64,000 bases of DNA from Centroscyllium fabricii (taxonomy: Eukaryota): positions 58,900,001 through 58,964,000 of the forward strand of contig JBNRSN020000011.1 of the NCBI GenBank assembly GCA_051313645.2, read 5' to 3'. A program made the translations under genes and the position numbers. Numbering within the stretch: position 1 is the first letter of the stretch; each line of letters opens with the position of its first letter. This document shows, piece by piece, positions 13,661 through 58,797 of this stretch. The notes under the pieces were generated by a model. That model was not told where the DNA came from, searched no databases, and saw only the letters and a list, made by a program, of their open reading frames with translations.

Positions 13661-13743
13661 TACTTGGAACGAATTCCAAGGGAACAAAGAAGCAGTCGCT
13701 GCAGGACTGAGGGCCAAGCTGCCTCAGTTGAATCGCAACCACC

Positions 13744-27458: not shown

Positions 27459-27459
27459 G

Positions 27460-27840: not shown

Positions 27841-29316
27841 GGGTCGCGCTGCAGCACCGTACCTGTGGCCACAGAGTGGCAGCGTTGGTTTCGCAGGCCG
27901 CGCTGTTGGGTCTTGAGGTCGGGCAGGATTTGCAAGCTTTCGCAAAATGTACCTTCTTCCCACACCTCGCGCAGGTCGCATTCCTCGTGGGGCACAGCAC
28001 TCACGGGTGTTTTGCCTGGCCACAGAAGTAGCACTTGGGACCCGCCGGCGTCTTCGCAGCTGCCGCTGCTGTTGTTGGGGCGCCCAGAGGTTAGGTGGGC
28101 CCGTGTGAGAGTTATTGTCCCTGTAGGCGCCATTACACTTGAGCGCTCCATCCACCGCATTAGACAGCGTGATAGCGGACTCGAGTGATAGAGTCTCTTA
28201 TTCCAGCAGCCATTGTCGGGCCTGGCTGGACCTGAGTCCTGCTACATACGCATCGCGGACCAGGAGATTGGCCCCTTCCTCTGCCGTCGTTGCCTGGCAG
28301 TCGCAGGCCTGTACGAGGGCTTGGAGCGCTGACAAAAATTCTTCGTTTGACTCACCCAGCCGTTGCCTTCTGGTCGGCAATATGTGTCTGGCGTAAACCG
28401 AGTGGACCGGGCGCATATAGCTGTCCTTCAGCTTCTTGGCAGCTTCTGTATACGTCTTGATGCCTCTGATGAGGGAATACACCTGGCCGCTGATCATGAA
28501 TGCCAGTACTTGTAGTTTGTCCTCATCGCTGGTCGCTTTCACGGCCCTCATGTAGGCCTCGACACAGCCAAACCAATGTTCGAAATTGTTCGCAGCATCG
28601 GGCGCCTGAGGGTTGATATCAAGACGGTCCGGTTTGACTGCAGCGGTCGGCCGGGTGCAAATCGCGGGCGCCGCCATCTCTTTTAAGATCACGGTGGCAG
28701 CCGGCCGCCCGCGTAGCACAGGCGCCGCCAACTTCAGCGCGACCACGGCCGGCCATGTGCGACCCAGCAGCGTCGCCATCTTCCACACAGCGGTCAGCCA
28801 CGTGCAAACCACGGGCGCTGCCATCTTGCCCACAGCAGTCAGCCGCGTGCGAACCATGGGCGCCGCCATCTTTCCCACAGTGGTCAGCCGCGTGTGAACC
28901 ACGGGCGCCGCCATCTTGCCCACAGTGGCCAGCCGCATGCGAACCACGGGCGCCGCCATCTTTGCCGCAGCAGCCACGTTGCTCTCCATGTTCAAAAAAT
29001 AGTTAATAAAATTGACGTATCGTCAATTAAGACACCAAGACAAATAGTTACCTCAACTAAATGCTTCTATTAACTATAAATGGAGCTGGTCTCCGGATGA
29101 GGTTAAGATGGTGAATGAACGCGGGATGGTCCGCAACCACCTATGTACTCCGACCTGAGGGGAGGAGTTAGAGGTGGGGTAGTTCCTGCCGTCAGTTATT
29201 TACAGCTATACAGGTATGTGACCAGCAATGCCGTCAGGTCATTACTGGTGTGGACATTATATACTGATGGTAAATACACGTTTACCACAGTTATAGTGGT
29301 GGATAGTAGTCAGTTG

Positions 29317-29568: not shown

Positions 29569-30719
29569 TGGTAAATCAGAAAAACAATTGTATTCAAAAG
29601 CTTTTAAAATGTGCCTATTAGTGTCCTTGCACCTAAAAAACACCCTTAATTTAAGAGTCGTCTTGAAGGCCCATAAACAGGCACAATTAACAGAAACTCC
29701 CCATGCTGATTAATTTGATATAGGGGCGTGGCCAGTTTTGTGGGCTGGGTCCAGATTCTAGCACAATCTTTTTTGAAACCAACGCAAAGGATTGCAGAAA
29801 CTCGATTTACACTGGCCGTAATTTGCATTTGAAATTCCTTGATCTACTGTGCTGGTTTTGTTGATATTGGGAGAATTGCACTCTGAGCGGAATCTCCAGG
29901 CCCAGCCATAGAGTATCCAAACAGCTAAATGTCTCCCGTTTCCACTGTTCTCTTTTATTTGCAGCATAGAATGATTAATGGCTAATCTCTCGCTCCACCT
30001 CAATATCTGTGATGACTGTAGCTGGTTTTCACTCTTTTGTGAAAGGGAGAGGAGTTCAGCCGGAGAACATGGGGATGGATTTTAACTTCAAGTGGGTTTC
30101 GGAGTGGAGACTGCTCCACCGAATTGCTTTCCCACCCGGCAGAGGGAGCAAGAGAGTGTGCTGACTTTAACTGCCAGGCCTCATTTAAATGCCACTGGTC
30201 AACTTCCTGCCCAGAGCACACGTGAAGAGGGCACAGACTGGCTGCTGGCAGGGGATGATTGGGCAGCACTTGGTCCTCCTGGGCCCTTCTGTCTTCAGAC
30301 CAGCAGCAGTCTTGTTCCTGTCTTGCGAGAAAGCTGTATCTGCTTCCCTACTCAAAACTGCATTCAGGTCTTACTAACATAATAGGACCCCCGACTTGTA
30401 TACATTTTTGAGGCTTCAGCCTGCTTTAGGTAGGCGCCTTATCTGCCTGCAAAACCCTGCAAACAATTTGTGGTAAACCATTAATCTGCCTGTACAGAAC
30501 ATGTCTGGGCATGCCTCAGCTGGCTCCGCCCCAGGCTCCACCCCTAAGCCCAGGTAAAAAGGTGATTGACCTCCAGTCGCCCTGGCTTTAAGGATCGGTC
30601 TACCAGCAGAGGCATGCTCCTATTCTTTTGTTAATAAAAGCCTACTTGTTATAAGTTTAATTCTTAGTCTTTTGGGAGTTATTGATGGCACATCAATTTT
30701 ATTAACAAAAAGTTTTGAA

Positions 30720-33700
30720 ATGGAGCAAATCCTGAAACCAGAACGCCTGGAATTGGACCCTCAAACAGCGGATGCATCAAATTACTTTGAGCACTGGCTG
30801 AGCTGCTTCGAAGCATTCCTGCAGGCCTCCACCACTACCGTCAGGACCGAAGCTGACAAACTGCTGGTACTGAACTTACGGGTGAGCCACAAAGTATATT
30901 CGATTATCCGAGACACTGCATCCTACACGGACGCTATCGCGATACTAAAAGAACAATATACTAAGCCAGTCAACGAGGTCTACGCAAGACACCTCCTGGC
31001 TACCAGCAAACAGCAGTCTGAGGAATCAGGTGATGAATACCTATGGGCACTGAGAGTCCTTGGCCGGGCCTGCAAGTGCAAATCGGTGACGACCACAGAA
31101 AATACTGATGACCAAATCAGAGACACCTACGTCGCCGGCATCAGGTCCAGCTACACTCGACAGAGACTGCTAGAGGAAAGTTGGCTTGACCTGCAGAAGG
31201 CTGTGGTGCTTGCTAACACTCTGGACGTGGCCCTCCGAAACATGGACGCCTACCCCCCTGACAATGCGGCCCTATTCGCCCCATGGATGTCGCGGGGGCC
31301 GTCATCTTGGGACATGGTAAGGCCACAGGCCTGCGCCACGCTGCCACCGTCATGGCCCACCAGCAGCCCAACTACAGCTGCGATGTCCAGAGGCCCAAAG
31401 TGCTATTTCTGCGGCCAGGCCAAGCACCCCAGACAACACTGCCCGGCGAAGGATGCGATCTGCTCCAAATGTGGAAAGAAGGGACACTATGCCAAAGTGT
31501 GCAGGGTGAAACCGACCCCCGACATGCAGGTCACCATCTTGGACACCAATTCAATTCAATTCAATTCAATTCAATTCAATTCAAGTTTTATTGTCATTGC
31601 AGAGTACAAGTACAATACAACAAAACGAAGACTTGCTGCTCCCGAGAGTAGTGCAAATAAGTTACATATAATTTCATACAGTAAAGTACATTTCAGGTGT
31701 GCAGATACTGAAGTTTTTTGTTAGAGTTCAGGAGGCTGACAGCCCTGGGGAAGAAGCTGTTCTTGAATCTGGTCGTGCGGTTGCGGATTGATCTGTAGCA
31801 TCTCCCGGAGGGCAGAGGGGTGAACAGACTGTGGCTGTGGTGTGTGGGGTCTTTAATAATGTTCAGAGACCTCCGTAGGCAACATTTGAGGTAGGTGCGT
31901 TCGATTGACGGTAGCTGGGTGCCGGTGATTCGTTGGGCAGTTTTGACTACCCGCTGCAGGGCCATCCGGTCCGAGATGGTGCAGTTTCCATACCAGACTG
32001 TGATGCAGTTTGTCAGTATGCTTTCAATTGTGCAGCGGTAGAAGTTGGTGAGGATGCCGGATGTCAGCTTGGCCTTTTTCAGCTTCCTTAGGAATTACAG
32101 GCGCTGTTGGGCCTTCTTTTTCAGAGAGGAGGTGTTTAGTGACCAGGAGAGGTCTTCCGAGATGTGGACCCCGAGGAACTTGAAGCTGGACACCCTTTCC
32201 ACCTCAGCCCCTAACCTCGCCCACAACTGCAAAGCCATCGCAACAAAAAGCAGGCGGTACAGTGCCGGGGATAGAAGCTTAATTAAAATAGAAGTAGAGA
32301 GACTCCTGCGGGAGGGGATTATCGAGGACAGCACCAGCCCATGCGAGCCCAAGTAGTGGTCATGAAGACCAGTGCGAAACAGTGCCTGGTCATTGACTAC
32401 AGTCAAACAATCAATAGGTATACCCAATTAGACGCATACCCCCTTCCCCGCATATCTGATATGGTCAATCAGATTGCACAGTACCGGGTATTCTCTAACA
32501 CTGACCTGAAGTCGGCATACCACAACTCCCTATGAGGCCTGAAGACCGCCAATATACTGCTTTTGAGGCAAACGGCTTCCTCTACCACTTCCTCAGAGTC
32601 CCCTTCGGCATCACCAACGGGGTCTCAGACTTCCAAAGGGAGATGGACCGGATGGTTGACCAGAATGCGCTGCAGGCCACTTTTCCCTACCTGGACAATG
32701 TCACCATCTGTGGCCATGACCAGCAGGACCATGACGCCAATCTAGAAAAACTCTTCCGAACAGCCCAGCGCTTAATTTTGACATACAACAAAGAAAAGTG
32801 TATGTTTCGCACCACCCGCCTCGCTATCCTTGGCTGTGTGGTGGAAAACAGAGTCATCAGCCCCGACCCCGACCGAATGCACCCCCTTCTGGAACTACCC
32901 CTGCCTCACTGCCTCAAAGCCCTGAAGAGATATCTGGGGTTTTTCCCTTATTACGCCCAATGGGTGCCCAATTATGCGGACAAAGCCCGGCCCCTTATCA
33001 AGTCAACCTCCTTCCCACTGGCAGCAGAGGCCCATGCAGCCTTCACCCATATAAAAGAGGACATTGCAAAGGCTACAATGCACGCCGTGGATGAGTCCAT
33101 CCCTTTCCAGGTGGAGAGCGATGCGTCTGACTTTGACCTGGCCGCAACCCTTAACCAGGCGGGGAGACCCGTGGCCTTCTTTTCACGAACCCTCCAGGGC
33201 CCCGAAATTATACACTCCTCAGTTGAAAAGGAGGCCCAGGCTATAATGGAGGCTGTACGGTATTGGAGGCATTACCTGGCCGGTAAACGCTTCACCCTGC
33301 TCACTGACCAACGATCAATAGCATTTATGCTCAATAACAAGCAGAGGGGCAAAATCAAAAATGACAAGATATTGCGGTGGAGGATCAAATTGTCCACCTA
33401 CAATACGATATCTTATACCGGCCTGGTAACTTAATGAGCCCCCGGAAGCCCTATCCCGTGGAACATGTGCCAACGCGCAGGTCAATAGGCTACGGGAACC
33501 TCCACAACGATCTCTACCACCCTGGGGTCACCAGGTTTTTCCACTTCATTAAGGCCCGCAACCTGCCTTACTCCATCGAGGAGGTCAGAACCATGACCAG
33601 GAACTGCCAAGTCTGTGCCGAATGCAAACCGCACATTTATAGGCCAGACAGGGCGCACCTGATTAAAGCCACCCGCCCCTTCGAGCGCCTAAGCGTAGCT

Positions 33701-34600
33701 TTTAAAGGGCCCCTCCCCTTCTCTGACCACAACACGTACTTCCTCAACATCATTGACGAGTGCTCCCGTTTCCCGTTCGCTATCCCATGACCGGACATGA
33801 CCAGTGCCACAGTCATCAAATGTCTCAATGACCTCTTCGCCATATTCGGTTTTCCCAGCTACATCCATAGCGACAGGGGCTCGTCGTTCATGAGCAACGA
33901 GCTGTGCCAGTACCTGCTCGAAAAAGGGGTAGCCACGAGCAGGATCACCAGCTACAACCCCCAGGGTAACGGACAAGTAGAAAGGAAGAACGTGACAGTG
34001 TGGAAAACCGGCATGCTAGCCCTAAAGTCCAGAGGCCTCCCAACCCCCCGCTGGCAAGATCCTCCCCGATGCGCTTCACTCCATACGGTCACTACTCTGT
34101 ACCTCCATGACCGCCACCCCTCACGAGAAAATGTTCATCTTCCCTAGGAAATCCACCTCGGGGACATTGCTACCACCATGGTTGATGTCTCCAGGGCCCG
34201 TCTTGCTCAGGAAGCACGTGAGGAGCCATAAAACAGACCCCCTGATCAAAAGGGTCCACCTCCTCCACGCCAAACCACAATATGCATATGTGGCGTATCC
34301 TGACGGGCGGGAGGACACGGTCTCCATACGAGACCTCGCACCCTCAGGTGCCACCGAAAACACTATTACCCACTACCCATTACCATTACCCACTACCATT
34401 ACCCACGACACACCCCTAGAAGGGAATCCACACCTAACCCAAGTAGACGGCACGCCAGGGGCCTGTGACCCACCCTTATACACCTACCGACCCCGCACCC
34501 ACGAAGATGACACACTGTTGCTCCGGCCTACGTGGGAAACAGCCAAGGGAAAAGAACCGTCGCAGCCGGCACCACGACGGTCACTACGGCAGACAAGACC
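30720..34600 (+). pseudogene. Element C gag-pol, disrupted; protease region missing
   Basis: MEQILKPERLELDP gag with two Zn knuckles; RT YLDN, RNase H VESDAS and integrase in shifted frames. Confidence 0.9.
31547..32210 (-). mobile_element. 5'-truncated Rex1/Babar LINE inserted in element C
   Basis: VERVSSFKFLGVHISEDLSWS..KKAQQRL and LPSGR.YRSIR.RTTRFKNSFFP motifs; (TTGAA)n tail. Confidence 0.92.
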
Positions 34601-34933
34601 TGACGTATCGTCAATGAGGCAAAGACGAGCAGTTACCTTAACTAGAGGCTTTTATTCACTTTACAATGGAGCTACTCTCCAGTCGAACATTGAGTACAGA
34701 ATGAATGGGGGCAGGTCAGACCCCACCTATAAGGCACTCACCTGAGGGGAGGAGTTAGAGGTGTGGCTGACCTGACCTCGCGACAGTGTCGTTATACAAA
34801 ACTATGTACAATGCACCCAGCCACTATACATGCTGGTCTGTAGTGTGCTCAACTATTTACACTGGTAATCATGATTACCACATACAACCCTTCTTTGAAA
34901 ATTGAGTCCGGCGGGGTGAATGGACAGAACCTG

Positions 34934-37900
34934 TTAATGCATGGAAGGAAGAAAAACATTTTTGCATATTATTGTATGAGCCCAGCTCAACAGTTCACAA
35001 TAAGTCTCTCCGGCGGTCGTGTCTGCCTTGAGGACCGCTAGTGGCGGCGGGGCCGGGTCCTCGGGCAGCTGTGTCTGTGGTGTGGCGTCTGGTTCTTGGT
35101 CCTCGGCTGGTAGTGTCGGGGGCCTCGGTGTGTGCGTGTGCATAGGCCACGATCCGGTGGGTTGTGGTTGGTGTGTAGGCCAGTAGTCGGTAGGCAGTGG
35201 CTGGTTGGGCTGAGGCTCGACCAGGGGCTCTGCTGTGGTGCTCCCGGCGGGCGCTAGGTCCCTGATGGAAACTGTTTCCTCGCGCCCGTCCGGGAACTGC
35301 ACGTAGGTGTACTGCGGGTTGGCGTGCAGCAGCTGCACCTTTTCCACCAGGGGGTCGGTCTTATGGCTGCGGACATGTTTTCTAAGTAAGACCGGCCCCG
35401 GCATCGTGAGCCACGGTGGGAGTGCTGTCCCCGAAGTCGACTTCCTGGGAAATGAAAAGAGCAAGTCGTGAGGTGTGGCGTTGGTAGCCGTACACAGCAG
35501 AGAGCGGATGGAGTGGAGCGCGTCTGGGAGGACTGCCTGCCAACAGGACACTGGAAGGCCTCTGGACTTCAGGACCAGGCTGACCGCCTTCCAGATGATC
35601 CCGTTCTCCCTTTCTACCTGGCCGTTCCCCCGGGGGTTGTAACTGGTCGTTCTGCTTGAGGCAACACCTTTCTGAAGCAGAAACTGACGCAGTTCGTCGC
35701 TCATGAACGACGACCCCCGGTCGCTATGGATGTTGCTGGGGAGACCGAAAATGGCGAACAGCATGGTGAAGTGTTTGATCACCGTTGCGCTTGTCATATC
35801 TGGGCAGGGGAAGGCAAAGGGGAAGCGGGAGAACTCGTCTACGACCGTGAGGAAGTACGGGTTGCGGTCGGTGGAGGGGAGGGGGCCTTTGAAGTCCACG
35901 CTTAGACGTTCAAAGGGGCGGGTGGCCTTAATGAGGTGTGCCGTGTCTGGCCTGTAAAATTGGGGTTTGCACTCGGCGCAAACAGGGCACTCTCGGGTCA
36001 TAGCCTTGATCTCCGTGATGGAGTAGGGGTGGCTACGAGATTTAACGAAATGGGCAAGTCTGGTGATACCCGGGTGGCAGAGGCAATCGTGGAGTTCCTT
36101 CAGCCGGTCTAGCTGGGCACTGGCGCACGTTCCCCTGGACAGTGCGTCCGGGGGTTCATTGAGTTTGCCTGGTCGGTAAAGAATGTCATACTCGTAAGTC
36201 GAGAGCTCGATCCGCCACCGCAGGATCTTATCATTCTTGATTTTACCCTTTTGTTTATTGTTAAACATAAACGCAACTGACCGTTGGTCGGTAAAGGCCC
36301 TGTCACACCTTGACGAATTAGCTAGCGCATGCCGACGTATGCAAATTTATCTAAAACGCTGGCGTTCGCTGTGTTTTTTACAGTTTTTGGGCGTATAATA
36401 GCGTATTCATAACGAGTTGGACGTATCGTATTAGTAACGTACACAGAAAGTTTCGATAAGTTACAGATAACTTATACCAACGAATGCTTAGCGTGTTGTC
36501 GGCGTTCACAACTTATGCCCAACGATAGTCTAACTTATGCATAGCGCACGGCAGCGTTTCGCCGACGATCACGTGGCTAGACATTATCTCGACGTATTTT
36601 GACTTATGACTAACTTACAAGTAACGTGTGTCGACGTGTGTCAACGATCGCCTACCGTGCCTACAACTTATGGCCAGCGTATGCGGACGTGTGAGTCATA
36701 CGCTGGGTACGTCGAGAAATTTTGTGCATGCTCAAAATTTCTCGACTTACTCGAAGTACAACGACGTATGCCAGCATATGCCAGCGTATGCCAGCGTGCT
36801 CTTAACGTATACAAAACTTACCCATAACGTATTCGACGTGTACCAGCGTTTTCGCCAAATTTGCATACGCTGGCTAAAACGTCAAGGTGTGACAGCCCCA
36901 TGAGCAGGGTAAAACGCTTACCGGCCAGGTAATGACGCCAGTAGCGCACGGCCTCCACGATGGCCTAGGCCTCCTTTTCCACTGCAGAGTAGTGCGTTTC
37001 GGGTCCCTGTAGGGTGCGGGAGAAAAACGCTATGCGCCTGCCTGCCTGATTCAGGGTGGCGGCAAGGGCAAAGTCCGAAGCGTCACTCTCCACCTGGAAA
37101 GGGATGGACTCATCAACGGCATGCATGGTTGCCTTGATAATATCTTCCTTGATCTGGGCGAACGCCGTGTGGGCTTCTCCCGAGAGGGGGAAGACGGCAG
37201 CCTTGAGGAGCGGTCTGGCCTTATCCGCGAACTGGGGAACCCATTGCGCGTAATAGGAGAAAATTCCCAGACATCTCTTCAGGGCTTTGGGGTTGTGAGG
37301 TAAGGGCAGTTCCTGTAAGGGGTGCATACGCTGTGGGTCGGGGCCAACGACCCCGTTTTCCACTACGTATCCGAGGATGGCGAGCCGATCTGTACTAAAG
37401 ACGCACTTGTCTTTATTGTATGTGAGATCGAGCCGTTTCGCCGTGTGGAGGAATTTGGCCAGGTTGGCATCGTGGTCCTGCTGGTCATGGCCGCAGATGG
37501 TCACGTTGTCCAGGTAGGGGAAAGTGGGCTGCAACCCGTTCTGGTCAACCATACGGTCCATCTCCCTCTGGAATACCGACACTCCGTTGGTCACGCCGAA
37601 GGGGACCCGGAGGAAGTGGTAGAGCCGACCGTTCGCCTCGAAGGCGGTGTACGGGCGGTCGGCTTTCCGGATCGGGAGTTGGTGATACGCCGACTTAAGG
37701 TCGATTGTGGAGAACACCTTATACTGGGCGATCTGGTTAACCATTTCCGAGATGCGGGGAAGGGGATAGGCGTCGAGCCCGGTGTAGCGGTTAATGGTCT
37801 GGCTGTAGTCGATCACCATCCGCAGTTTCTCGCCAGTCTTAACCACTACGACCTGGGCCCGCCAGGGGCTGGTGCTGGCTTCAATTATCCCCTCCTGCAG

Positions 37901-39786
37901 CATACGCGCGACCTCCGACCTGATAAATGTCCGATCCCCTGCACTGTAACGCTGACTCTTTGTAGCAATGGGTTGGCAGTTGGGGTCGAGGTTGGCGAAC
38001 AGCGAGGGGGGGTCGACTTTCAGGGTGGATAGGCCGCAAGAAGGGCTCCGCTTTAGGAAGGGATTGTCCCGGCTACTGACGGCGAGGGGGGGTAGGGTCC
38101 CGCCGAACTCCATTGTCACGCTCTTCAGGTGGCACTGGAAATCCAGTCCCAGTAAGACTGGGGCGCACAACTGCTGGAGTATGTACAGTTTAAAGTTACA
38201 GTACACGCAGTCCCTGACTGTGAGCGTGATGGAGCAGTAGCAGGTGACGTCCGCCGTGTGGGACTTTGAAACAAGGGAAATTTGGTAGTGCATGGGCAGG
38301 GTCTGCAGTCCGTAGCGCCGCACTGTGTCGGGGTGAATGAAGCTCTCTGTGCTTCCGGTGTCGAACAGGCAGTTGGTGATATGGCCGTTAACCTTAATCC
38401 CCATCATGGAATTTGATAGGGTGTGCGGCCTAGCGTGGTCGACTGTGGCTGAGGCCGAAGTGTGTGTGCGTGTGTGGGGGCCCTCCGCTAGCTGGGGCCG
38501 TGCACAAGATGGCGGCGCACGTGATTCGCACGCGGCCGACCGCGATGGACAAGATGGCGGCGCCGGGGGGGTCGCACATGACTGGCCGCTGAAGACAAGA
38601 TGGCGGCGCCGGGGGGTCACACATGGCTGGCCGCTGAAGACAAGATGGCGGCGCCGGGGAGTCTCACATGGCCGGCCGCTGAAGACAAGATGGCGGCACC
38701 CGTGATTCGCACGCGGCGGGCCTCTGTGGATGCAGTGGCGGTGCCTGTGGTTCGCACGCGGTGGGCCGCGGTGGCTGAGTTGGTGGCGCCCGTGATTCAC
38801 ACGCAGCGGGCCGCGCTGGGCGGGATGCCGGCGTTGGGGGGTCGCCCATGGCCGGCCGCGGCCGTCTTTGGTGTGGCGGTGCCCATGCCATGTGTGCGGC
38901 CGGCCTCTGCCGTATCAGGGTGGGAGACGGGGGCGCTTGTAATCTACCCCTGGACCGCTGCTGGGTCCCGCTGCAACAGCCATGGGATGGCGTTGGAGCT
39001 CTCGCAGGCCGCGCTGTTGTGTCTGGAGCTGGGCGCTGGGGCCAATTTGCAGGCCCTGGCGTAATGTCCCTTTTTACTGCATTTCTCGCAGATCGCGGTC
39101 CTCACGGGGCATTTCGCTCGCGGATGTAGTCGCTGGCCGCAGAAGTAGCATTTTTTATCCGCTGGCAGCTTCGCAGCTGCCGCTGCCGTTGTGGGGGTCT
39201 CGACCTGTCATGGGGCCACCCAGGAGTCGAGGGTGGCTTGTGGGCCTTGGCCGCTATACGCCTCTAGTCTGTGGCGTGCTCCATCCACTGCGTTAGAGAT
39301 GGAGATCGCCTCTTCCAGCGATAAGGTCTCTTTCTCCAGCAACCGCTGGCGGGCCTGACCGGACCTGATCCCCGTCACATAGGCGTCCCGAACGAGAAGA
39401 TTCGTCTCCTCCTGCGCCGTCCGTGCCTGGCAGTCACAGGCCCGGGCGAGGGCTTGGAGCGGCAACAGATATTGTTCATTGGACTCACCGATCCGTTGTT
39501 GTCTGGTCGCCAGCACATGTCTGGCGTAGACTGAGTGGACCGGGTGCACGTAGCATGCCTCCAGTTTCTCCACGGCCTCTTTGTATGTTTTTGCGTTGCG
39601 GATGAAGGAGTATACCCGGCTGGAGATCCTGGACGAGAGAACGTGGAGTTTGTTCCCGTCGGTCGTCGCCTTGGCAGCCTCCATGTAGGCCTCGACGAGG
39701 CTGAACCAATATTCAAAAGTATTGGCGGCGTCTGGATCCTGTGGACTGACATCCAGCTTTTCGGGTTTCACAGCACCGCTCTCCAT
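34934..39786 (-). pseudogene. Element D gag-pol, disrupted by stops, frameshifts and a MITE
   Basis: MESGAVKPEKLD gag, LFDTGS, YLDN, VESDAS, HDCLCHPG, SDRG, QVERE. Confidence 0.9.
36295..36900. mobile_element. 606-bp TIR element (Harbinger-like MITE) in the RNase H region of element D
   Basis: TIR core CTGTCACACCTTGACG / CGTCAAGGTGTGACAG extending imperfectly to ~35 bp; 3-bp TSD TAA/TGA splits the LTDQR codons. Confidence 0.9.
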
Positions 39787-40683
39787 TTTAAATTTAAAGT
39801 GAATACAATTGACGTATCGTCAATGAGGCAAAGACGAGTAGTTACCTTAACTAGAGGCTTTTATTCACTTTACAATGGAGCTACTCTCCAGTACAGAATG
39901 AATGGGGGCAGGTCAGACCCCATCTATAAGGCACTCACCTGAGGGGAGGAGTTAGAGGTGTGGCTGACCTGACCTCGCGACAGTGTCGTTATACAAAACT
40001 ATGTACAATGCACCCAGCCACTATACATGCTGGTCTGTAGTGTGCTCAACTATTTACACTGGTAATCATGATTACCACAAGACCCCCAGAGAGACTTGCC
40101 TATACGTACTTCTGAGACACTTCACCCCGTCGGACTCATTTTAAACAAGGGGTGAATGTGGCAAACTACTAATCTGCCTGTACAGAATATGTCTGGGCAT
40201 GCCTCAGCTGGCTCCACCCCAGGCTCCACCCTTAAGCCCAGGTATAAAGGTGATTGACCTCCAGCCCCCCTGGCTTTAAGGATCGGTCTACCAGCAGACG
40301 CATGCTCATATTCTTTTGTTAATAAAAGCCTACTTGTTATAAGTTTAACTCTTAGTCTTTTGGGATTTATTGATGGCACATCACAATTGGAAATGTTTGG
40401 GATCAATTTTCCCTGTGAGCTACGTGGGTGCACAGCCGCGCAGCAATCGGTGAAGGAACCGCGCAAGCCGCTCATAAGCTGGCCCATTGACCATCCTGCA
40501 TTGCAAATTTAAAGATACCACACATTTAAATAAACAGGCTGTGCCCCCATGGCAACATTTAGATGGAGCATTGGTTGGGATAAGAGTGGGTCAATTAGCT
40601 GCCCATTCACCTGGTTTCCGCCAGCTGGGAAGGTTTAAAATTGACCCCTTAGTTTCATCTAAGATAGTTAGTGAGTTTCATAT

Positions 40684-42123: not shown

Positions 42124-45100
42124 TGACGTATCGTCAAGGTCTTCAATTAAAAGAGTCGACGCGTAGTTACCGAAACTAAAGGCTTTTAATTACTAAAGAA
42201 CGGAGCTACTCTCCAGATGAACTACTGTACAGGAATGGATGGAGCCTCGGTCAGAGCACACCTATATCGGGGCCTCACCTGGGGGAGGAGTCGGGGGTGT
42301 GGCTGACCTGGCTCCCAACAGAGTCACAGTAAACGGGGCTGTGCCTAACATCTGCACAGCCCATCATTAGCCATGGTGATACAGTGGTATAACAGATATA
42401 GAACGGTTACCACATTCACCCCTTCTTAAAAACTTTGAGTCCGGGGGGGGGTGAATGGATCGAACAGTTCATAATTAGTCTGTCCGGCGGTCGTGTCTGC
42501 CTGGAGGACCGCCGGCGCTCCGGTGTTGGCGGCGGTGCCTCTTGTGTCAAATGGTCCGCATCTGCCGGCGCTGTGGCTTCAGGTCGTGGTGGGCTCGGCT
42601 GGTCCCCGCCGTCCGGTTCGTAGTCAGGGAAACTCGGGGGCCATCCTGCGTCTGGTGGTTGGTCGAACTGCTGGCCAGCAGGGGGCACTGTGGTGGTGAT
42701 TCCGGCCGGGGCCAGGTCCCTGATGGACACGGTGTCCTCACGCCCGTCCGGGAACTGCACGAAGGCATAGTGCGGGTTCGCGTGTAGGAGCTGTACCTTG
42801 TCCACCAGGGGGTCCGTCTTGTGGCTCCGGACATGCCTTTTAAGCAAAACCGGCCCCGGCGTCGTCAGCCATGGAGGGAGAGCTGTCACCGAAGTCGACC
42901 TCCTGTTAAAAGAAAAAATCAGATCATGCGGGGTGGCGTTAGTGGCGGTACATAACAGTGAGCGAATAGAGTGCAGCGCATCTGGGAGGACTGCCTGCCA
43001 ATGGGACACTGGAAGGCCTCTGGACTTAAGGGCCAGGGTGACCGCCCTCCAGATGATCACATTCTCCCTTTCTACCTGGCCGTTTCCCCGGGGGTTATAA
43101 CTGGTCGTTCTGCTCGTGGCAACCCCTCTCTGGAGCAGGAACTGGCGCAGTTCATCGCTCATGAACGATGACCCCCGGTCGCTATGTATGTAGCTGGGGA
43201 GACCGAAAATGGCGAACAGCGTGGTGAAGTGTTTTATCACCGTTGCGCTCGTCATGTCTGGGCAGGGGAAGGCGAAGGGGAAGCAGGAGAACTCATCCGC
43301 TACCGTGAGGAAGTATGAGTTGCGGTCGGTGGAGGGGAGGGGGCCTTTGAAGTCCACGCTGAGACGTTCAAAGGGGCGGGTGGCCTTGATGAGGTGCGTC
43401 GTGTCTGGACGGAAAAAGTGGGGTTTGCACTCGGCGCAGACAGGGCACTCTCGGGTCATAGCCTTGATCTCCGTGATGGAGTAGGGGAGGCTACGGGATT
43501 TGACGAAATGGGCGAGTCTGGTGACACCCGGGTGGCAAAGGCGGACATGGAGGTCCTTCAGCCGGTCTAGCTGGGCACTGGCGCATGGTCCCCTGGACAG
43601 AGCGTCAGGGGGTTCGTTGAGTTTGCCTGGTCGGTAAAGAATGTCGTACTCGTATGTCGAGAGTTCGATCCGCCACCGCAGGATCTTATCATTCTTGATT
43701 TTACCCCGTTGTTTATTATTAAACATAAAGGCTACCGACCGTTGGTTGGTGAGCAGGGTAAAACGCTTACCGGCCAGGTAATGACGCCAGTAGCGCATGG
43801 CCTCCACGATGGCCTGGGCCTCCTTTTCCACTGCTGAGTGGCGAGTTTCAGGTCCCTGTAAGGTGCGGGAGAAAAACGCTACGGGCCTGCCTGCCTGATT
43901 CAGGGTGGCAGCAAGGGCGAAGTCCGAAGCGTCACTCTCCACCTGGAAAGGGATGGATTCATCAACAGCGAGCATGGTCGCCTTGATAATATCTTCCTTT
44001 ATCCTTGCGAATGCCGTTTGGGCTTCCACAGAGAGGGGGAAGACTGCAGCCTTGAGGAGTGGCCTAGCCTTATCTGCGAACTGTGGGACCCATTGTGCAT
44101 AATAGGAGAAAAATCCTAGACATCTCCTCAAGGCTTTGGGGTTGTGAGGTAGGGGCAGTTCTTGCAAGGGTCGCATACGCTGTGGGTCGGGGCCGAGGAG
44201 CCCGTTCTCCACCACATATCCGAGGATGGCGAGCCGGGCTGTATTAAAGACACATTTGTCTTTGTTATACGTGAGGTCCAGCTTAGCCGCCGTGGCGAGA
44301 AATTTGGCCAGATTGGCATCGTGGTCCTGCTGGTCATGGCCGCAGATGGTCACGTTGTCCAGGTAAGGGAAGGTGGCCTGCAAGTCGTTTTGGTCAACCA
44401 TACGGTCCATCTCCCGTTGGAACACTGACACTCTGTTGGTCACGCCAAAGGGGACCCGGAGGAAGTGGTAGAGCCGACCGTTCGCCTCGAAGGCGGTGTA
44501 GGGGCGGTCGGCTTTCCGGATCGGGAGCTGATGATACGCCGATTTAAGGTCGATCGTAGAGAACACTTTGTACTGGGCGATCTGGTTGACCATTTCTGAG
44601 ATGCGGGGAAGGTGGTAGGTGTCGAGCCCGGTGTAGCGGTTGATAGTCTGGCTGTAATCGATAACCAGCCGCTGTTTTTCACCAGACTTCACCACTACAA
44701 CTTGGGCGCGCCAGGTGCTGGTGCTGGCTTCAATTATCCCCTCCTTCAGCATCCGCCCGACCTCCGACCTGATAAACGTGCGATCCCCCTCACTGTACCG
44801 CCGACTCTTAGTGGCAATGGGTTTGCACTTCGGATCGAGGTTGGCGAACAGCGAGGGGGGGTCGATTTTCAGGGTGGAGAGGCCGCAGGCCGGGCTCCGC
44901 TTTGGGGGGAGATTGTCCCGGCTACTGACGGTGACCGGGGGTAAGGTCCCGCCGAACTCCATTGTCACACTCCTGAAGTGGCACTGGAAATCCAAACCTA
45001 GTAAGGCTGGGGCACACAACTGTTGGAGGGTATACAATTTAAAATTACGGTACACGCGCCCCTGGACGGTGAGCGTGACGGAGCAGTAGCCGGTTGCGTC

Positions 45101-46991
45101 CGCGGTGTGGGACTGTGAAGCTAGGGAGACTTGGTAGTTGGTGGGCAGGACCTGCAGTCCGCAGCGCCACACTGTATCAGGGTGAATAAAGCTCTCAGTG
45201 CTGCCTGTGTCGAAAAGGCAGTCGACAGTATGATCGTTAATGCTAATCGGTATTATTGAGTTAGACAGGGTATGGGGCCTGCCCTGGCTAACTCTGATTC
45301 TGGACGCCACAGCCCCTGCTGATCGGAGCTGTGCACAAGATGGCGCCGCCCCTGGCTCGCACATGGAGGGGCCCTGGATACAAGATGGCGTCGCCCCTGG
45401 CCCGCAGCTGGTGGGGCCCCGTATACAAGATGGCGCCGCCCCTGGCACGCACATGGAGGAGCCCTGGATACAAGATGGCGTCGCCCCTGGCCCGCAGCTG
45501 GTGGGGCCCCGTATACAAGATGGCGCCGCCCCTGGCTCGCACATGGAGGGGCTCTGGTTGCAAAATGGCATTTCTGAGGGGCCCTGTGAACGCGCTGGTG
45601 GCGCCCGTGATTCGCACGCAGCGAACCGCGGTGATCGTGTTGGCGGTGCCCGTGATTCGCACGCAGCGAACCGCGGTGGTCGGGTTGGCGGTGCCCGTGA
45701 TTCGCACGCAGCCGGCCACGTTGGGGGGTCGCGCTTGGCCGGCCTTTGCTGCATCAGGGTGGGGGATGGGAGCGCTTGTTGTTTACCCCCGTACCGTCGC
45801 TGGATCGCGCTGCTAATGCAGCTTACCTGGTCTCTGTCGGTGCTCTCACAGGCTGCACTGTTGTACCTTTTGTTAGACGCTGCTGGAGACGCTGCTGGAG
45901 ACGCTGCTGGAGCTGATTTGCAGACCTTAGCGTAGTGTCCCTTCTTTGCACATTTCTCGCAGGTCGCTGTCCTGGCTGGGCATTTCGCTCTAGGATGCAG
46001 TCCCTGGCCGCAGAAGTAACAGCGCTTTCTTTTAACGTCTTCAGTGGCTGTCGCGGCCATCGTGGGGGTCTCGGCCCGTGGCGCCCAGGTCTGGGCCTGT
46101 TGTGACGCGGCCCATATGTTACAGGCTTGCGGGTTAGTGCCGCTGTACGCCTGTAACTTTCTGCGGGCCCCCTCTACCGATTTGGCTAACGTGGTTGCCT
46201 CCTCGAGGGATAAATTGTCTCTCTCTAGTAGCCGCTGCCGGGCTTCCACACACCTCAGTCCTGTGACATAAGCGTCCCGAACGAGGAGTTCTTCCTCCTC
46301 TGCAATAGTTGTGCCTTTGCAACCACAGGCCCGTACCAGGGCCAGGAGCGCTTGCTCAAACTCCTCATTTGACTCACCCGATAGTTGAGGTCTGGTCGCC
46401 AGCACATGTCGGGCGTAGACCGAATGGACCGGGCGCATGTAGCATTTCTTTAAAATTTGTACAGTCCTTTCGTAGGTTGTGGCGTTCCTGACGAGGGTGA
46501 ATACTCTGCTGGAGATCCTAGATCGCAGGACATGTAGCATGTCCTTGTCTGTTGTAGCCTCGGCGGCTTCCATGTAGGCCTCCAGTAGGCCGAACCAGTG
46601 TTCGAAGGTAGCGGGAGCAGCAGGGTCCTGGGGACTGATGTCCAGCTTCTCAGGCTTAACGTTGCTGCTATCCATTTTAAAATAATTTAGTAATTAAAAT
46701 TGACGTAGCATCAAGGTCTTCAATTAAAAGAGTCGACGCGTAGTTACTGAAACTAAAGGCTTTTAATTACTAAAGAACGGAGCTACTCTCCAGATGAACT
46801 ACTGTACAGGAATGGATGGAGCCTCGGTCAGACCACACCTATATTGGGGCCTCACCTGGGGGAGGAGTCGGGGGTGTGGCTGACCTGGCTCCCAACAGAG
46901 TCACAGTAAACGGGGCTGTGCCTAACATCTGCACAGCCCATCATTAGCCATGGTGATACAGTGGTATAACAGATATAGAACGGTTACCACA
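42124..46991 (-). mobile_element. Gypsy element E, full-length
   Basis: 291-bp LTRs 42124-42414 and 46701-46991 (about 5 differences by eye), TSD CACCC, PPT. Confidence 0.97.
42416..46675 (-). CDS. Single-ORF Gag-Pol polyprotein (1419 aa) of element E
   Basis: Uninterrupted gag (2 Zn knuckles), protease LFDTGS, RT YLDN, RNase H, integrase HHCC/DDE. Carries probable inactivating substitutions such as TDQRS>TNQRS. Confidence 0.93.
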   Translation of the reverse strand: MDSSNVKPEKLDISPQDPAAPATFEHWFGLLEAYMEAAEATTDKDMLHVLRSRISSRVFTLVRNATTYERTVQILKKCYMRPVHSVYARHVLATRPQLSGESNEEFEQALLALVRACGCKGTTIAEEEELLVRDAYVTGLRCVEARQRLLERDNLSLEEATTLAKSVEGARRKLQAYSGTNPQACNIWAASQQAQTWAPRAETPTMAATATEDVKRKRCYFCGQGLHPRAKCPARTATCEKCAKKGHYAKVCKSAPAASPAASPAASNKRYNSAACESTDRDQVSCISSAIQRRYGGKQQALPSPTLMQQRPAKRDPPTWPAACESRAPPTRPPRFAACESRAPPTRSPRFAACESRAPPARSQGPSEMPFCNQSPSMCEPGAAPSCIRGPTSCGPGATPSCIQGSSMCVPGAAPSCIRGPTSCGPGATPSCIQGPSMCEPGAAPSCAQLRSAGAVASRIRVSQGRPHTLSNSIIPISINDHTVDCLFDTGSTESFIHPDTVWRCGLQVLPTNYQVSLASQSHTADATGYCSVTLTVQGRVYRNFKLYTLQQLCAPALLGLDFQCHFRSVTMEFGGTLPPVTVSSRDNLPPKRSPACGLSTLKIDPPSLFANLDPKCKPIATKSRRYSEGDRTFIRSEVGRMLKEGIIEASTSTWRAQVVVVKSGEKQRLVIDYSQTINRYTGLDTYHLPRISEMVNQIAQYKVFSTIDLKSAYHQLPIRKADRPYTAFEANGRLYHFLRVPFGVTNRVSVFQREMDRMVDQNDLQATFPYLDNVTICGHDQQDHDANLAKFLATAAKLDLTYNKDKCVFNTARLAILGYVVENGLLGPDPQRMRPLQELPLPHNPKALRRCLGFFSYYAQWVPQFADKARPLLKAAVFPLSVEAQTAFARIKEDIIKATMLAVDESIPFQVESDASDFALAATLNQAGRPVAFFSRTLQGPETRHSAVEKEAQAIVEAMRYWRHYLAGKRFTLLTNQRSVAFMFNNKQRGKIKNDKILRWRIELSTYEYDILYRPGKLNEPPDALSRGPCASAQLDRLKDLHVRLCHPGVTRLAHFVKSRSLPYSITEIKAMTRECPVCAECKPHFFRPDTTHLIKATRPFERLSVDFKGPLPSTDRNSYFLTVADEFSCFPFAFPCPDMTSATVIKHFTTLFAIFGLPSYIHSDRGSSFMSDELRQFLLQRGVATSRTTSYNPRGNGQVERENVIIWRAVTLALKSRGLPVSHWQAVLPDALHSIRSLLCTATNATPHDLIFSFNRRSTSVTALPPWLTTPGPVLLKRHVRSHKTDPLVDKVQLLHANPHYAFVQFPDGREDTVSIRDLAPAGITTTVPPAGQQFDQPPDAGWPPSFPDYEPDGGDQPSPPRPEATAPADADHLTQEAPPPTPERRRSSRQTRPPDRLIMNCSIHSPPPGLKVFKKG

Positions 46992-54233: not shown

Positions 54234-57200
54234 TATGGTAAACCACTGTATATTGTATATAGATGTGTCCCCCTTGTGTCCCCTCCCTGTAACTGTACGT
54301 AATGCCTCCTTGCCAGGGAGGACTCACCTGGGAGGACTCCGCTCCTCGGCTTCCTTCCCAGGCTCCGCCCACTGGGTATAACAGTGAGAGCACATCTGAG
54401 TGCTCTCACTTTGGCTTGGAAGATCGTCGGACCTGTGTCCTCTTCTATGTGAATAAAAGCCTTGATTACATCTCACCATCGACTGGAGTAACTGATTGTG
54501 CATCAATTTTATTCAAGTCGGTTTTTTTTTCTACAACGAGGATGGAGAAGTTCCTGAGGCCCGAAAGACTTAATCTCGTCCCGCGATCAGCAGGCGCTGA
54601 GCGGGCCTTCACTCACTGGGTCTCCTGCTTCGAGGCCTTCCTCGTGGAATCCCGCCTGACCGTGGACACAGACCAGCGGAAGCTCAACGTCCTGCGGGCC
54701 CAGGTCAGCCCTGAGCCCTTCAGCATAATCGAGGGTGAAGCGACCTACAAGGGCACCCTGGACATCCTAAAAACTCGGTTCACCACCCCAAAGAACGAGA
54801 TCTACACCAGGCAGCTACTGTTAAACAGGAAACAACAACCTGGTGAGTCCTTAACGAACTATATGGCAGCGTTGCAAACGCTAGTGCGCGCCTGCAATTG
54901 TAGGCCGCTAACAGCTAACGAACACCAGGACATAATCCTGAGAGATGCGCTGGTGGCTGGACTCAGGTCATCCTATACGCGCCAGCGGCTGCTGGAGCAG
55001 AGCAACATAGGCCTGGCGGTGGCTGAAGCGCTAGCTGAATCGCTGGAGGCCGCACACTTGCAGAGAGAGTCCTACGACCAGCATGGGGCGTGGGCGCTGG
55101 CCCCGTGGACGGGCGAGTCGATCACCACTGCGCCCCCACTCATGACCGCGGCGGCGGCCTGACCCCAGAAGTGCTATTTCTGTGGACAGTCGAAACACCC
55201 CAGGCAGCGCTGCCCTGCTAAAGAAGCGCTGTGCTCCAGCTGCAGGAAAAAGGGACACTATGCAGCAGTCTGCAAGAGCAGACCATTCCCCTCCAGCAGC
55301 GCCGCGTGGGCTCCATCGGAGCAGCCAACTTGGGGCAACCAGCACTCACCCCCACGTGGCGAATGTGGAGGCGGCCATTTTGGATCAGACGGCCATCTTG
55401 CAGCCCCCACCCCTCCACGCGGTGAACATGGAGGCAGCCATCTTGGATCAGACGGCCATCTTGCACCAGCGCCATGCTTGCTCCCACAGGGCGGCCATCC
55501 TGGGGCCTACTCAGCCGCGTGTGACCACTGGACACCATCACGCCTGACGACAGAGCTGCCGCAGCTCGCATCGATAACGCTGGACCAGACCCGGCCCAAC
55601 CAACTGGCGCAATCAAAAATGGACATTGAGGTAAACGGCTGCACGGTTAATTGCCTTTTCGATTCGGGGAGTACCGAAAGTTTTATACATCCGGACACTG
55701 TACGGAGGCTTTCCCTCATGGTACTCCCCGCACGCCAGCGGATCCTAATGGCCTCCAACGCCGCGTCAGCGGAAGTCGGTGGCATCTGCGTAGTGACACT
55801 AAGGGTGCGGGGTACCGTGTACAACCATTTTAAACTGCTAGTCCTCCCCCACCTCTGCGCTGCCGTCCTACTGGGCCTTGACTTTCAGAGCTTCCTCGAC
55901 AGTGTCATCATGAAATACGGTGGCCCCCTTCCCCCGTTGACTGTCTGTAGCCAGCAGTTCGCGCAGCCCGAACCCCACACCATTTGCGGCCTTTCGACCC
56001 TTAAAGTCATCCCTCCCTCACTATTTGCTAACCTCACCCCCGACTGTAAGCCCATAGCTACAAAAAGCAGGCGCTACAGCACGGGGGACAGACTGTTTAT
56101 TAAGTCTGAGGTCCAGTGGCTACTGAAGGAGGGGATCATCGAGGCCAGTAACAGCCCCTGGAGAGCCCAGGTTGTAGTCGTCAAGACCGGCACCAAACCA
56201 CCGCCTGGTCATCGATTACAGCCAGACGATAAACCGTTTCACCCAATTGGACGCATACCCCCTGCCTCGCATCTCAGACATGGTCAATGAGATTGCGCAG
56301 TACAGGGTGTTCTCTACAATTGACCTTAAGTCCGCATACCATCAGCTCCCCATCCACCCTGGAGACCGCCACTTCACCGCCTTTGAGGCGAATGGCCGCC
56401 TCTACCACTTTCTGAGGGTCCCCTTCGGGGTCACCAATGGCGTGTCGGTCTTCCAGCGGGAGATGGACCGGATGGTGGACCAGAACGGGCTGCTGGCTAC
56501 CTTCCCCTACCTCGACAACATCACCATCTGTGGCCATGACATGAGGGACCACGATGCCAACCTGGCCAAATTCGTCCACACCGCCAAGCTCCTCAACCTC
56601 ACTTACAATGAGGAAAAATGCATTTTCCGCACCACCCGCCTCGCCATCCTGGGGTGCGTCGTGGCAAACGGGGTCATCGGCCCGGACCCCGAATGCATGC
56701 GCCCCCTCATGGAGCTTCCCCTCCCCCAGAGCCCAAAGACCCTGAAAAGGTGCCTGGGCTTCTTTTCGTACTACGCCCAATGGGTCCCCCAGTACGCTGA
56801 CAGAGCCCGCCCCCTCCTGAGATCCACTTCCTTCCCCCTGTCGATCGAGGCTCGTGCAGCCTTCGACAGCATCAGAGCAGCCATCGCCAAGGCGACCATG
56901 CACGCTGCGGACGAATCCGCCCCGTTCCAGGTGGAAAGTGATGCCTCTGACTTTGCCCTGGCCACCACTCTCAACCAGTCTGGACGGCCGGTAGCCTTTT
57001 TCTCCCGTACCCTCCACGGTCCCGAAATCAGGCATTCATCAGTGGAGAAGGAGGCCCAGGCCATCGTGGAAGTGGTGCGGCACTGGAGACACTACCTGGC
57101 CGGTAGAAGATTTACCCTGCTCACTGACCAGCGGTCGTGGCTTTCATGTTTAGTAACAACCAGCGGGGTAAAATCAAAAACGATAAAATCCTACGGTGGA

Positions 57201-58797
57201 GAATTGAACTGTCCACCTATAATTACGACATCTTGTACCGGCCCGGTAAACTCAATGAGCCCCCGGACGCACTATCCCGTGGAACCTGTGCCAGCGCATA
57301 AGTGGATAGACTGCAGTCCATCCACAATGACCTCTGCCACCCCGGAGTCACGCGGCTCTATCACTTCGTGAAGTCCCGCAACCTACCCAACTCCGTTTTG
57401 GACATCCGGGACATCACCGGGCACTGCCCCACCTGTGCGGAGTGCAAACCAAATTTTTCTGACCTAGCAGAGCCAGCTTGGTCAAGGCCACCCGCCCCAT
57501 TGAACGACTGAGCGTCGATTTCAAGGGCCCCCACCCCTCCACCAACAGGAACGGGTACTTCCTGACTGTGATCGATGAGTACTCACGCTTCCCCTTCGCA
57601 ATCCCTTGCCCTGACATTACCACAGCCACAACCATCAGGTGTCTGCACAGCATCTTCACCATGTTCGGCTACCCCAACTGTATTCACTCAGACAGGGGGT
57701 CGGCCTTCATGAGTGACGAGCTGCGCCAGTACCTGCTGTCCAACGGGATTGCGATGAGCAGGACCACTAGCTACAACCCCCGGGGCAACAGGCAGGTTGA
57801 ACAGGAGAACGGCACCGTCTGGAAGGCCATCAGCCCCGCCCTGCGGTCCAGGGGCCTCCCCGCCTCCCGCTGTCAGGAGGTTCTCCCAGATGCCCTCCAT
57901 TCCATCAGGTCACTGCTCTGCACCGCCACCAATGCCACCCCTCACGAGCGGATGTTTTGCTTCCCCAGGAAGTCTGCATCCGGGACCTCGCTGCCAACGT
58001 GGCTGATGTCCCCCGGGCCTGTCTTGATCCGGAAACACGTGAGGGCCCACAAGACAGACCCCCTGGTCGAGAGGGTACAGCTCCTCCACGCCAACCCCCA
58101 GTATGGCTATGTGGCATTCCCAGATGGGCGGGAGGACACGGTCTCCATTTGAGACCTCGCGCCCGCGGGCGCCCCAGAAACCATCGGCCACCGTGCCCTC
58201 ATCCCCACCCCCACCCCCACCACCGTCCCCCTTCACGAGACGCTGTCATATGGTTCCCTTATAGCTCCAGTAGATGGCAGAACGCCGGACGGACCGATGC
58301 ACGACCCCCACCCACCCACGGCGGCGCCACCACCGACTTCGGAAGACATCACGCCGACGGAGATCGAACAACCGCTGGAGACTGCACGGCCGTCGACCCC
58401 TGAAACGACGCCAAGACCCGCACTGCGACGATCGACTCGGCAGACGAGACCGCCAGATAGACTGAATATTTGACTTTGTGTAAAATCGTTCACACCCGCC
58501 TTCATTTTTTTAAACAGGGGGTGAATGTGGTAAACCACTCTATATTGTATATCGATGTCTCCCCCTTATGTCCCCTCCCTGTAACTGTACATAACGCCTC
58601 CTTGCCAGGGAGGACTCACCTGGGTGGACTCTGCTCCTCGGCTTCCTCCCCAGGCTCCGCCCACTGGGTATAAAAGTGAGAGCACACCTGAGTGCTCTCA
58701 CTTTGGCTTGGAAGATCGTCGGACCTGTGTCCTCTTCTATGTGAATAAAAGCCTCGATTACATCTCACCATCGACTGGAGTAATTGATTGTGCATCA
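54234..58797 (+). mobile_element. Gypsy element F nested in the Penelope ORF
   Basis: 272-bp LTRs 54234-54505 and 58526-58797, TSD GTGCC on both sides, PPT AGGGGGTGAA. Confidence 0.96.
54542..58473 (+). pseudogene. Element F gag-pol with stops and frameshifts
   Basis: MEKFLRPERLNL gag, LFDSGS, YLDN, VESDAS, SDRG; ends RPPDRLNI*. Confidence 0.9.

What the first reader, a model, noticed from the sequence alone, without database searches (positions are those of the whole stretch)
46686..46774. tRNA-less Gypsy lineage: the PBS position is complementary to the element's own poly(A)-signal segment, covarying across five families (candidate self-priming system)
Seen: in every second-lineage element whose 5' end is visible, the LTR-terminal CA is followed by one A and then TT(T/G)TA..., not the TGG of a tRNA PBS. 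The gag ATG comes only ~23-36 nt after the LTR. That segment is the reverse complement of the AATAAA/ATTAAA-containing stretch 47-60 nt inside the LTR. E: 46686-46699 vs 46761-46774 (14/14, both with the ATTAAA variant). C: 30697-30710 vs 30626-30639 (14/14). B: 28999-29011 vs 24167-24179 (13/13; 12/13 in the 5' LTR). D: 39795-39808 vs 39859-39872 (13/14). F: 54507-54515 vs 54450-54458 (9/9). The non-core bases differ between families yet stay paired, and pairing always ends at AAAA^GCCT. Established: Tf1/sushi-type elements self-prime by annealing their own RNA to the PBS followed by cleavage; HIV-1 occludes its 5' poly(A) signal in a hairpin. Inference: cleavage at AAAA^G would leave a 3'-OH correctly oriented to prime minus-strand synthesis. 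The partner lies ~60-70 nt downstream of the TATA-like box, so probably not at the transcript 5' end as in Tf1. Only the 5' LTR is followed by the complement, so the same duplex could also silence premature polyadenylation. Self-priming has been proposed for some other Gypsy groups, so novelty needs a literature check.
Basis: partly seen in the sequence, partly recalled or inferred. Interest (0 to 1): 0.9.

Follow-up and report, generated by a model that had tools for sequence, protein, structure and literature searches.

The report
Self-priming Gypsy with an internal primer
This very abundant animal jumping gene has no tRNA landing site; the spot where DNA copying must start pairs with 13-14 letters of its own end-repeat, and rare mis-copied insertions in the genome suggest it likely primes itself with a cut piece from the front of its own RNA, by a different layout from the yeast element Tf1.

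Summary
Observation confirmed. B-F belong to one non-chromovirus Gypsy lineage with about 168,000 matching junctions in this genome. In 83 copies picked without regard to either segment, LTR positions -13..-1 pair Watson-Crick with +2..+14 (0.94-1.0, then 0.17 at -14), in 16 haplotypes, with no recurrent wobble. New evidence: 562 copies carry a complement that runs on past 13 nt. Of 72 examined, 17 stop at the initiator A predicted from TATA+Inr, none in the next 63 nt, and 30 form LTR palindromes. So RT copies this segment from RNA, and it lies about 40 nt inside the transcript, unlike Tf1/sushi (control). Nine metagenome families keep the duplex, five without a canonical poly(A) hexamer, so poly(A) masking is at most secondary. 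Not shown: the cut itself (one search found no pile-up), cis versus trans, a full tRNA exclusion. No paper found in nine searches; Repbase unchecked. This scan noted the same lineage on other genomes. Verdict: new variant of self-priming.

The parts
46701..46991 (-). Element E 5' LTR (291 bp, TG...CA); 5-bp TSD at 46992-46996 and 42119-42123
46838..46845 (-). TATA-like box
   Evidence: 28-29 nt before the Inr A in 58 of 82 related copies
46813..46813 (-). Inferred transcription start (Inr A), 53 nt before the inferred cut
   Evidence: motif; 17 of 72 run-on copies end at -52/-53
46779..46791 (-). Small R-region hairpin; the duplex edge lies 4 nt 3' of it
   Evidence: hairpin-to-cut 17 nt gives a 13-nt duplex in 58 of 67; 18 nt gives 14 or more in 10 of 12
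46761..46774 (-). Self-primer segment, overlapping the ATTAAA poly(A) hexamer; inferred 3'-OH at 46761, inferred cut between 46761 and 46760
   Evidence: the cut itself is inferred
46701..46760 (-). 60-nt loop of short hairpins, ending in a U5 inverted repeat that abuts the primer site
   Evidence: predicted folds
46700..46700 (-). Single A spacer after the LTR-terminal CA
   Evidence: A in 83 of 83 copies, not fixed by the search pattern
46686..46699 (-). Primer-binding site, complementary to 46761-46774
   Evidence: 14/14
42416..46675 (-). Single gag-pol ORF (protease, RT, RNase H, integrase; no chromodomain hit)
42124..42430 (-). Polypurine tract and 3' LTR (42124-42414) of E; same segment at 42184-42197, not followed by its complement
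24115..29289 (-). Element B, same lineage; primer site 28999-29011
30469..40383 (+). Element C, same lineage, interrupted by D; primer site 30697-30710, partner 30626-30639
34601..40079 (-). Element D, nested in C; primer site 39795-39808, partner 39859-39872
54234..58797 (+). Element F; primer site 54507-54515 (decayed beyond 9 nt), partner 54450-54458
13367..18101 (+). Element A, a different Gypsy lineage with a TGG (tRNA-type) primer site; used as internal control

Best explanation
The element likely primes reverse transcription with its own R-region RNA: a 13-14-nt segment about 40 nt inside the transcript pairs with the site just after the 5' LTR and is predicted to be cut at AAAA^G, probably by the element's RNase H as in Tf1. 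Shown: the pairing, its fixed register (CA, one A, then the complement), its sharp edge, and that RT sometimes copies this R segment onto the LTR end as far as the predicted start site. Inferred: (1) Pol II starts at the Inr A; (2) the 60-nt U5 loop folds and the duplex forms in cis; (3) a cut leaves a 3'-OH on a roughly 53-nt 5' fragment; (4) minus-strand DNA copies the spacer A and U5, then jumps using the short stretch between the cut and the 3' poly(A) site; (5) plus-strand synthesis copies the primer back into the primer site, which would rewrite it each cycle and explain wobble-free covariation, including shared one-base insertions; (6) copying normally ends at 13-14 nt for a reason not established. 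Masking of the 5' poly(A) signal may be a side effect in this genome's families.
For: No TGG within 8 nt of the 5' LTR end in 82 of 82 copies. Watson-Crick fraction 0.94-1.0 at -13..-1 and 0.17 at -14 in 83 copies. 16 perfect haplotypes; no non-WC state in the duplex seen more than twice, while two LTR-internal hairpins carry shared mismatches (T-C in 18 of 64; loop-closing pair non-WC in 61 of 71, a weaker control). 562 run-on copies, control 0. Of 72 examined: 20 end at -28..-49, 17 at -52/-53, 0 at -54..-116, 3 at -117..-169, 30 at or past the LTR start, 2 unresolved. The 17 join 7 distinct internal sites; 16 fit a last copied base at the Inr A, 8 of them against a mismatched acceptor base. 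9 of 11 palindromes with two full arms have 5-bp TSDs, so integrase inserted them. Duplex pair probability 0.82-0.91 at -3..-12 in 77 copies. Same register and AAA^RCC end in 17 of 26 metagenome loci, 9 families. Sense-orientation LTRs broken at the start site are not enriched (4 matches).
Against: No pile-up of LTR break-points at the inferred cut: 18 at the cut, 13 at -3, 92 at +3 with a looser pattern; the test has low power. The stop at the start site shows an RNA template with that 5' end, but a 13-nt tail re-annealing to an intact RNA would give the same product. Nine of the 17 share one acceptor site and may descend from few events. Three run-on copies continue into the polypurine tract (L112, L136, L146), and L326 carries another subfamily's R complement; both fit a 3'-R or trans primer. 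The terminal A-U pair competes with the U5 hairpin (pair probability 0.38). Only tRNA-Lys and tRNA-Cys genes were recovered for comparison.
Confidence: 0.72

Rival explanations
1. Still self-priming, but the primer comes from the 3' R copy of a genomic RNA, or from a short transcript of any LTR, cut or trimmed back to the hexamer; RNase H trimming would then give the 13-nt edge.
For: 3 of 72 run-on copies continue through U3 into the polypurine tract; L326 joins one subfamily's U5 to another's R complement; no break-point pile-up at the cut; arm-versus-arm comparison cannot exclude near-identical donors (R 15/1060, U3 33/2575 mismatches).
Against: 17 copies stop at the start site against 3 that run into the tract; the local 60-nt-loop duplex is predicted to form readily; no excess of LTRs that begin at the start site, which minus-strand copying to the cap might leave (low power).
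Confidence: 0.17
2. The duplex exists mainly to mask the 5' poly(A) signal (as recalled for the HIV-1 poly(A) hairpin), and priming uses an unidentified host RNA or tRNA fragment.
For: In this genome the segment overlaps AATAAA/ATTAAA in the five window elements and in the sampled copies; only the 5' LTR has the complement; the host tRNA set was not fully recovered.
Against: 5 of 9 related families keep the duplex without a canonical hexamer, and L186 has AATAAA in the loop instead. A host primer would have to track 16 haplotypes. A masking hairpin does not predict the fixed +2 register, the absence of shared wobble pairs, or run-on copies ending at the start site. Longest match to the tRNA genes held is 9 nt.
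Confidence: 0.07
3. The match is a by-product of DNA-level fold-back or quasi-palindrome correction, with no role in priming.
For: Palindromic copies can arise by fold-back on DNA; in L068 the 5' LTR and the primer site share a variant that the 3' LTR lacks.
Against: A DNA template has no end at the Inr A, yet 17 of 72 copies stop there and none in the next 63 nt; it leaves the element with no primer site; the layout holds across RTs only 47-62% identical.
Confidence: 0.03

Closest known systems
Tf1/Tf2/Tj1 and the Tf1/sushi group (self-primed chromoviruses)
   Same: Primer site directly after the 5' LTR is complementary to the element's own LTR; a U5 inverted repeat abuts it; a cut in an RNA duplex would give the primer (PMC7175516, PMC10085805, PMC4600332: passages read).
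   Different: There the primer is the first 11 nt of the RNA. Sushi-type copies in this genome show it: 11 nt, starting 29 nt after TATAAA (5 of the 6 readable copies; the sixth has a TATAAG variant), 413-432 nt from the LTR end, poly(A) signal separate. Here it is 13-14 nt, about 40 nt inside the RNA, 40-61 nt from the LTR end, at the hexamer. No chromodomain; RT 28-32% identical to sushi-type.
Tcn1 chromoviruses and TAR (Houba/Osr-1) Copia elements of plants
   Same: Self-priming predicted from complementarity (PMC6317226, passages).
   Different: Other lineages and hosts; the passages read give no internal-primer layout or copy-back evidence.
Saci2/lennie clade of flatworms
   Same: Single Gag-Pol ORF Gypsy elements of animals (PMC12471100 Results section).
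   Different: Described with tRNA-type primer sites and 4-bp TSDs (PMC12471100 passages and Results; PMC4558846 passages); B-F have 5-bp TSDs and no TGG. No sequence comparison was possible; supplement Figure S6 was not read.
HIV-1 5' poly(A) hairpin (recalled, no call)
   Same: A poly(A) hexamer is base-paired only in a 5' context.
   Different: A local hairpin unrelated to priming; HIV-1 uses tRNA-Lys3.

Membership tests
Ty3/Gypsy LTR retrotransposon | LTRs TG...CA, TSD, polypurine tract, domain order PR-RT-RH-IN | tested here: met
   best solved-structure match is Ty3 RT, E 4.7e-45
Tf1/sushi group | No tRNA site; primer site complementary to own LTR | tested here: met
Tf1/sushi group | [quoted passage not shown] | tested here: not met
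   segment begins about 40 nt after the Inr A; sushi control begins 29 nt after TATAAA; RNA start inferred from DNA, not mapped
Tf1/sushi group | Chromodomain and Tf2-like SH3 on integrase | tested here: not met
   no hit in E, H or four relatives; chromodomain in 2 of 3 and SH3 in 3 of 3 sushi-type ORFs
Tf1/sushi group | RT groups with chromoviruses | tested here: not met
   sushi-type rows group with tRNA-type element A, apart from the lineage (100/100, branch 2.5; SH-aLRT 99). Root unusable (BEL branch 10); no named reference RTs; 8 of 44 DNA rows dropped as under 140 aa
Tf1/sushi group | RNase H cuts the RNA duplex to make the primer | not testable with these tools
   needs biochemistry; indirect break-point count gave no support
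Tf1/sushi group | Three-duplex 'pretzel' around the primer site | tested here: inconclusive
   U5 inverted repeat beside the site is predicted; a conserved leader duplex was not established
Saci2/lennie clade | tRNA-type primer site and 4-bp TSD | tested here: not met
   0 of 82 with TGG; 5-bp TSDs
Named animal Gypsy clades (Mag, CsRN1, Cigr-1, MolGy) | RT placement with named references | not testable with these tools
   no named reference sequences could be fetched; PMC6238403 passages list clades only

The most novel reading that the evidence does not exclude
A widespread animal Gypsy clade evolved self-priming independently of Tf1/sushi and uses a capped 5' fragment of about 53 nt, cut at its own poly(A) hexamer, with only the last 13-14 nt paired; copying this primer rewrites the primer site every cycle, and in this genome the same duplex doubles as the switch that keeps the 5' LTR from polyadenylating. 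Failed products in the genome map the RNA start and the primer without any RNA data.
Probability: 0.4. Interest if true: 0.85.

Novelty: new variant of a known kind. Interest (0 to 1): 0.72.

Why it matters
Self-priming has been proven in Tf1 and predicted mostly for its relatives. Here a distant lineage with over 100,000 junctions in one vertebrate genome, with protein relatives in sharks, rays, a sea anemone, a shrimp and a nematode, appears to do it with a different layout. If right, a large part of animal Gypsy elements lies out of reach of tRNA supply and tRNA-fragment silencing, and annotation tools that look for a tRNA site will miss or mislabel them. The run-on copies give a cheap test for any proposed self-primer: look in the genome for complements that overrun the primer site and see where they stop.

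Tried and rejected
RNA evidence: no RNA holder listed; read laying was not used. Viral contigs: no relative. Host tRNA set: only Lys-TTT and Cys-GCA came back in the 30 loci scanned, so the tRNA scan is incomplete. Break-point tests for a minus-strand stop at the cut (18, 13 and 92 matches, 10 loci read) and at the start site (4 matches): no signal either way. Cis versus trans by arm comparison: no power, since same-subfamily copies differ by a median 1.9%. A test for 3' LTRs followed by a primer copy was not run. Rooting with a BEL RT failed (branch length 10). Atlas search of Gag gave only unnamed Gag-like clusters. A displaced TGG site at the start codon, a ribozyme core and a tRNA-like fold in R were considered by eye and dropped: no conserved core was seen, and the conserved CG near +18 fits a downstream promoter motif (recalled) as well. 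In 9 of 26 metagenome loci no duplex above 10 nt was found; several have little or rearranged upstream DNA, and they were not resolved. Two primary Tf1 papers (PMC1563812, PMC109269) were not held and were seen only as titles in reference lists.

Full report
Setting. The window lies at G000:C113:58.90-58.96 Mb in a 7.2-Gb genome. The closest named RT relatives are from sharks and rays at 74-79% identity, then unnamed aquatic sequences, a sea anemone and a nematode at about 60%; Gag relatives include a shrimp. Self-comparison shows LTR pairs for A-F. E has one ORF with protease, RT, RNase H and integrase and no chromodomain hit.

Observation. All five pairings hold as written. Each 5' LTR ends in CA, then one A, then the complement. 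Element A has a TGG site. A pattern spanning the hexamer to the primer site matches 167,869 places, the reversed pattern 1. To avoid selecting on either segment I used a pattern on the U5 end and the start codon only (106,959 matches) and fetched 80 stretches from the first 100 listed, giving 83 junctions. One had a disrupted LTR and was left out of later counts (82).

Covariation. The Watson-Crick fraction is 0.94-1.0 at -13..-1 and 0.17 at -14. Sixty of 82 copies are perfect over 13 nt, in 16 haplotypes; each of the other 22 is a different single-copy combination. Swapping partners drops the match at four variable columns from 0.90 to a mean of 0.10. After 3' LTRs the longest complement is at most 8 nt, against 11 or more in 45 of 54 5' LTRs. 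No non-WC state in the duplex occurs more than twice, whereas two hairpins inside the LTR carry shared mismatches. Subfamilies with one extra base between an upstream hairpin and the cut mostly have a 14-nt duplex, so insertions covary too. Other subfamilies show the same layout. This fits one segment being copied from the other better than two arms kept by selection alone (inference).

Where the RNA starts. A TATA-like box lies 28-29 nt before an Inr A in 58 of 82 copies; 18 had no Inr and 5 no TATA by my patterns. That A is 52-53 nt upstream of AAAA^G. If the primer is copied and has a 5' extension, some copies should carry a longer complement. A pattern for this found 562, control 0. I examined the first 72 listed. 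End points: 20 at -28..-49, 17 at -52/-53, none at -54..-116, 3 at -117..-169, 30 at or beyond the LTR start, 2 unresolved. The 17 rejoin the element at 7 distinct internal sites. Sixteen fit a last copied base at the Inr A; in 8 that base mismatches the acceptor. Nine share one acceptor and may not be independent. A DNA template has no end there, so the template was RNA starting at that A (inference). The 30 long ones are LTR palindromes, explained by a plus-strand tail folding back on its own R; 9 of 11 with two full arms have 5-bp TSDs. Three run into the polypurine tract.

What this does not show. The stop at the start site does not prove a 53-nt primer, because a 13-nt tail could re-anneal to an intact RNA. 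Break-point counts gave no pile-up at the cut (18, against 13 at -3 and 92 at +3 with a looser pattern) and none at the start site in sense orientation (4). One of 10 loci read at the cut, L326, carries another subfamily's R complement. Arm comparison could not separate cis from trans. No RNA holder was listed. Only two tRNA types were recovered; the longest match was 9 nt.

Range. Of 80 metagenome loci I examined 26 whose match began near the Gag start. Seventeen, in 9 families, show an 11-17-nt duplex at the same place, mostly ending AAA^RCC; 9 showed none above 10 nt. Five of the 9 families lack AATAAA/ATTAAA in the duplex, and L186 has AATAAA in the loop. In several a hairpin starts at the cut. 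Their RTs are 44-64% identical to E. Poly(A) masking therefore cannot be the general reason for the duplex.

Control and placement. Of 7 sushi-type stretches from the same genome, 6 gave a readable LTR; all 6 have an 11-nt complement 413-432 nt before the LTR end, 29 nt after TATAAA in 5. Chromodomains were found in 2 of 3 ORFs scanned. In RT trees the sushi-type rows group with tRNA-type element A, apart from this lineage; identity to sushi-type RT is 28-32%, to A 31-34%, while A and sushi share 44-45%. The root is unusable, so independent origin is likely but not shown. The clade could not be named.

Mechanism. Most likely Tf1-like chemistry on a different layout: the duplex forms across a folded 60-nt loop (predicted), is cut at AAAA^G, and the 5' fragment primes; copying the primer back rewrites the primer site. 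That Tf1's RNase H cuts between nt 11 and 12 comes from PMC7175516 (passages). That the Tf1 primer stays on the cDNA I saw only as a title in a reference list. The main rival is a 3'-R or trans primer.

Literature. Nine searches listed no paper describing self-priming in a non-chromovirus animal Gypsy clade or an internal primer at the poly(A) signal. Passages read: PMC12471100 (also Results; supplement only listed), PMC3601003, PMC4558846 (also one section), PMC6317226, PMC10886601, PMC4600332, PMC10085805, PMC7175516, PMC6238403, PMC6934838; PMC12440569 had no hit for the terms. The library lacks most subscription papers, bioRxiv supplements and Repbase Reports; I recall, unverified, Repbase entries calling some animal Gypsy families self-primed. 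Earlier notes of this scan report the same kind of duplex in other genomes; none is held for this genome.

Verdict. Real, ordinary in being a Gypsy element, unusual in its primer. It works like Tf1/sushi but fails three membership tests for that group. New variant of a known kind; interest 0.72.

Noticed in passing
G000-wide; e.g. L119, L121, L132, L153: Short palindromic insertions (LTR, one A, inverted U3-R) with 5-bp TSDs: integrase-made by-products with two U3 ends; 30 of 72 run-on copies examined reach the LTR start.
   Followed up: partly
L114, L122, L134, L140, L141, L150, L165, L178, L181: Nine run-on copies rejoin gag at the same site about 159 nt past the LTR; either recurrent jumps at a 7-nt homology or a small non-autonomous family.
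   Followed up: partly
L326: U5 of one subfamily followed by the R complement of another subfamily: possible priming or template switch in trans.
   Followed up: no
L068: 5' LTR and primer site share a variant absent from the 3' LTR.
   Followed up: no
window 27445-27840, 28640-28976, 38490-38900, 45323-45773: 45-nt tandem repeats inside gag-pol of B, D and E; B also has an inverted copy just after its gag start.
   Followed up: no
window 10239-11633 (-): DDE_Tnp_4 (Harbinger-type) transposase ORF that spans the N stretch.
   Followed up: no
window 6799-7302: 36-nt tandem array of about 10 units.
   Followed up: no
window 60699-64000 (-) and 1-564: A sixth element of the same lineage (H) runs off the window end; a partial A-like 3' end lies at the window start.
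   Followed up: partly
L299-L305: Young sushi-type chromoviruses (LTR pairs over 99% identical) with classic 11-nt self-primers coexist in this genome.
   Followed up: partly
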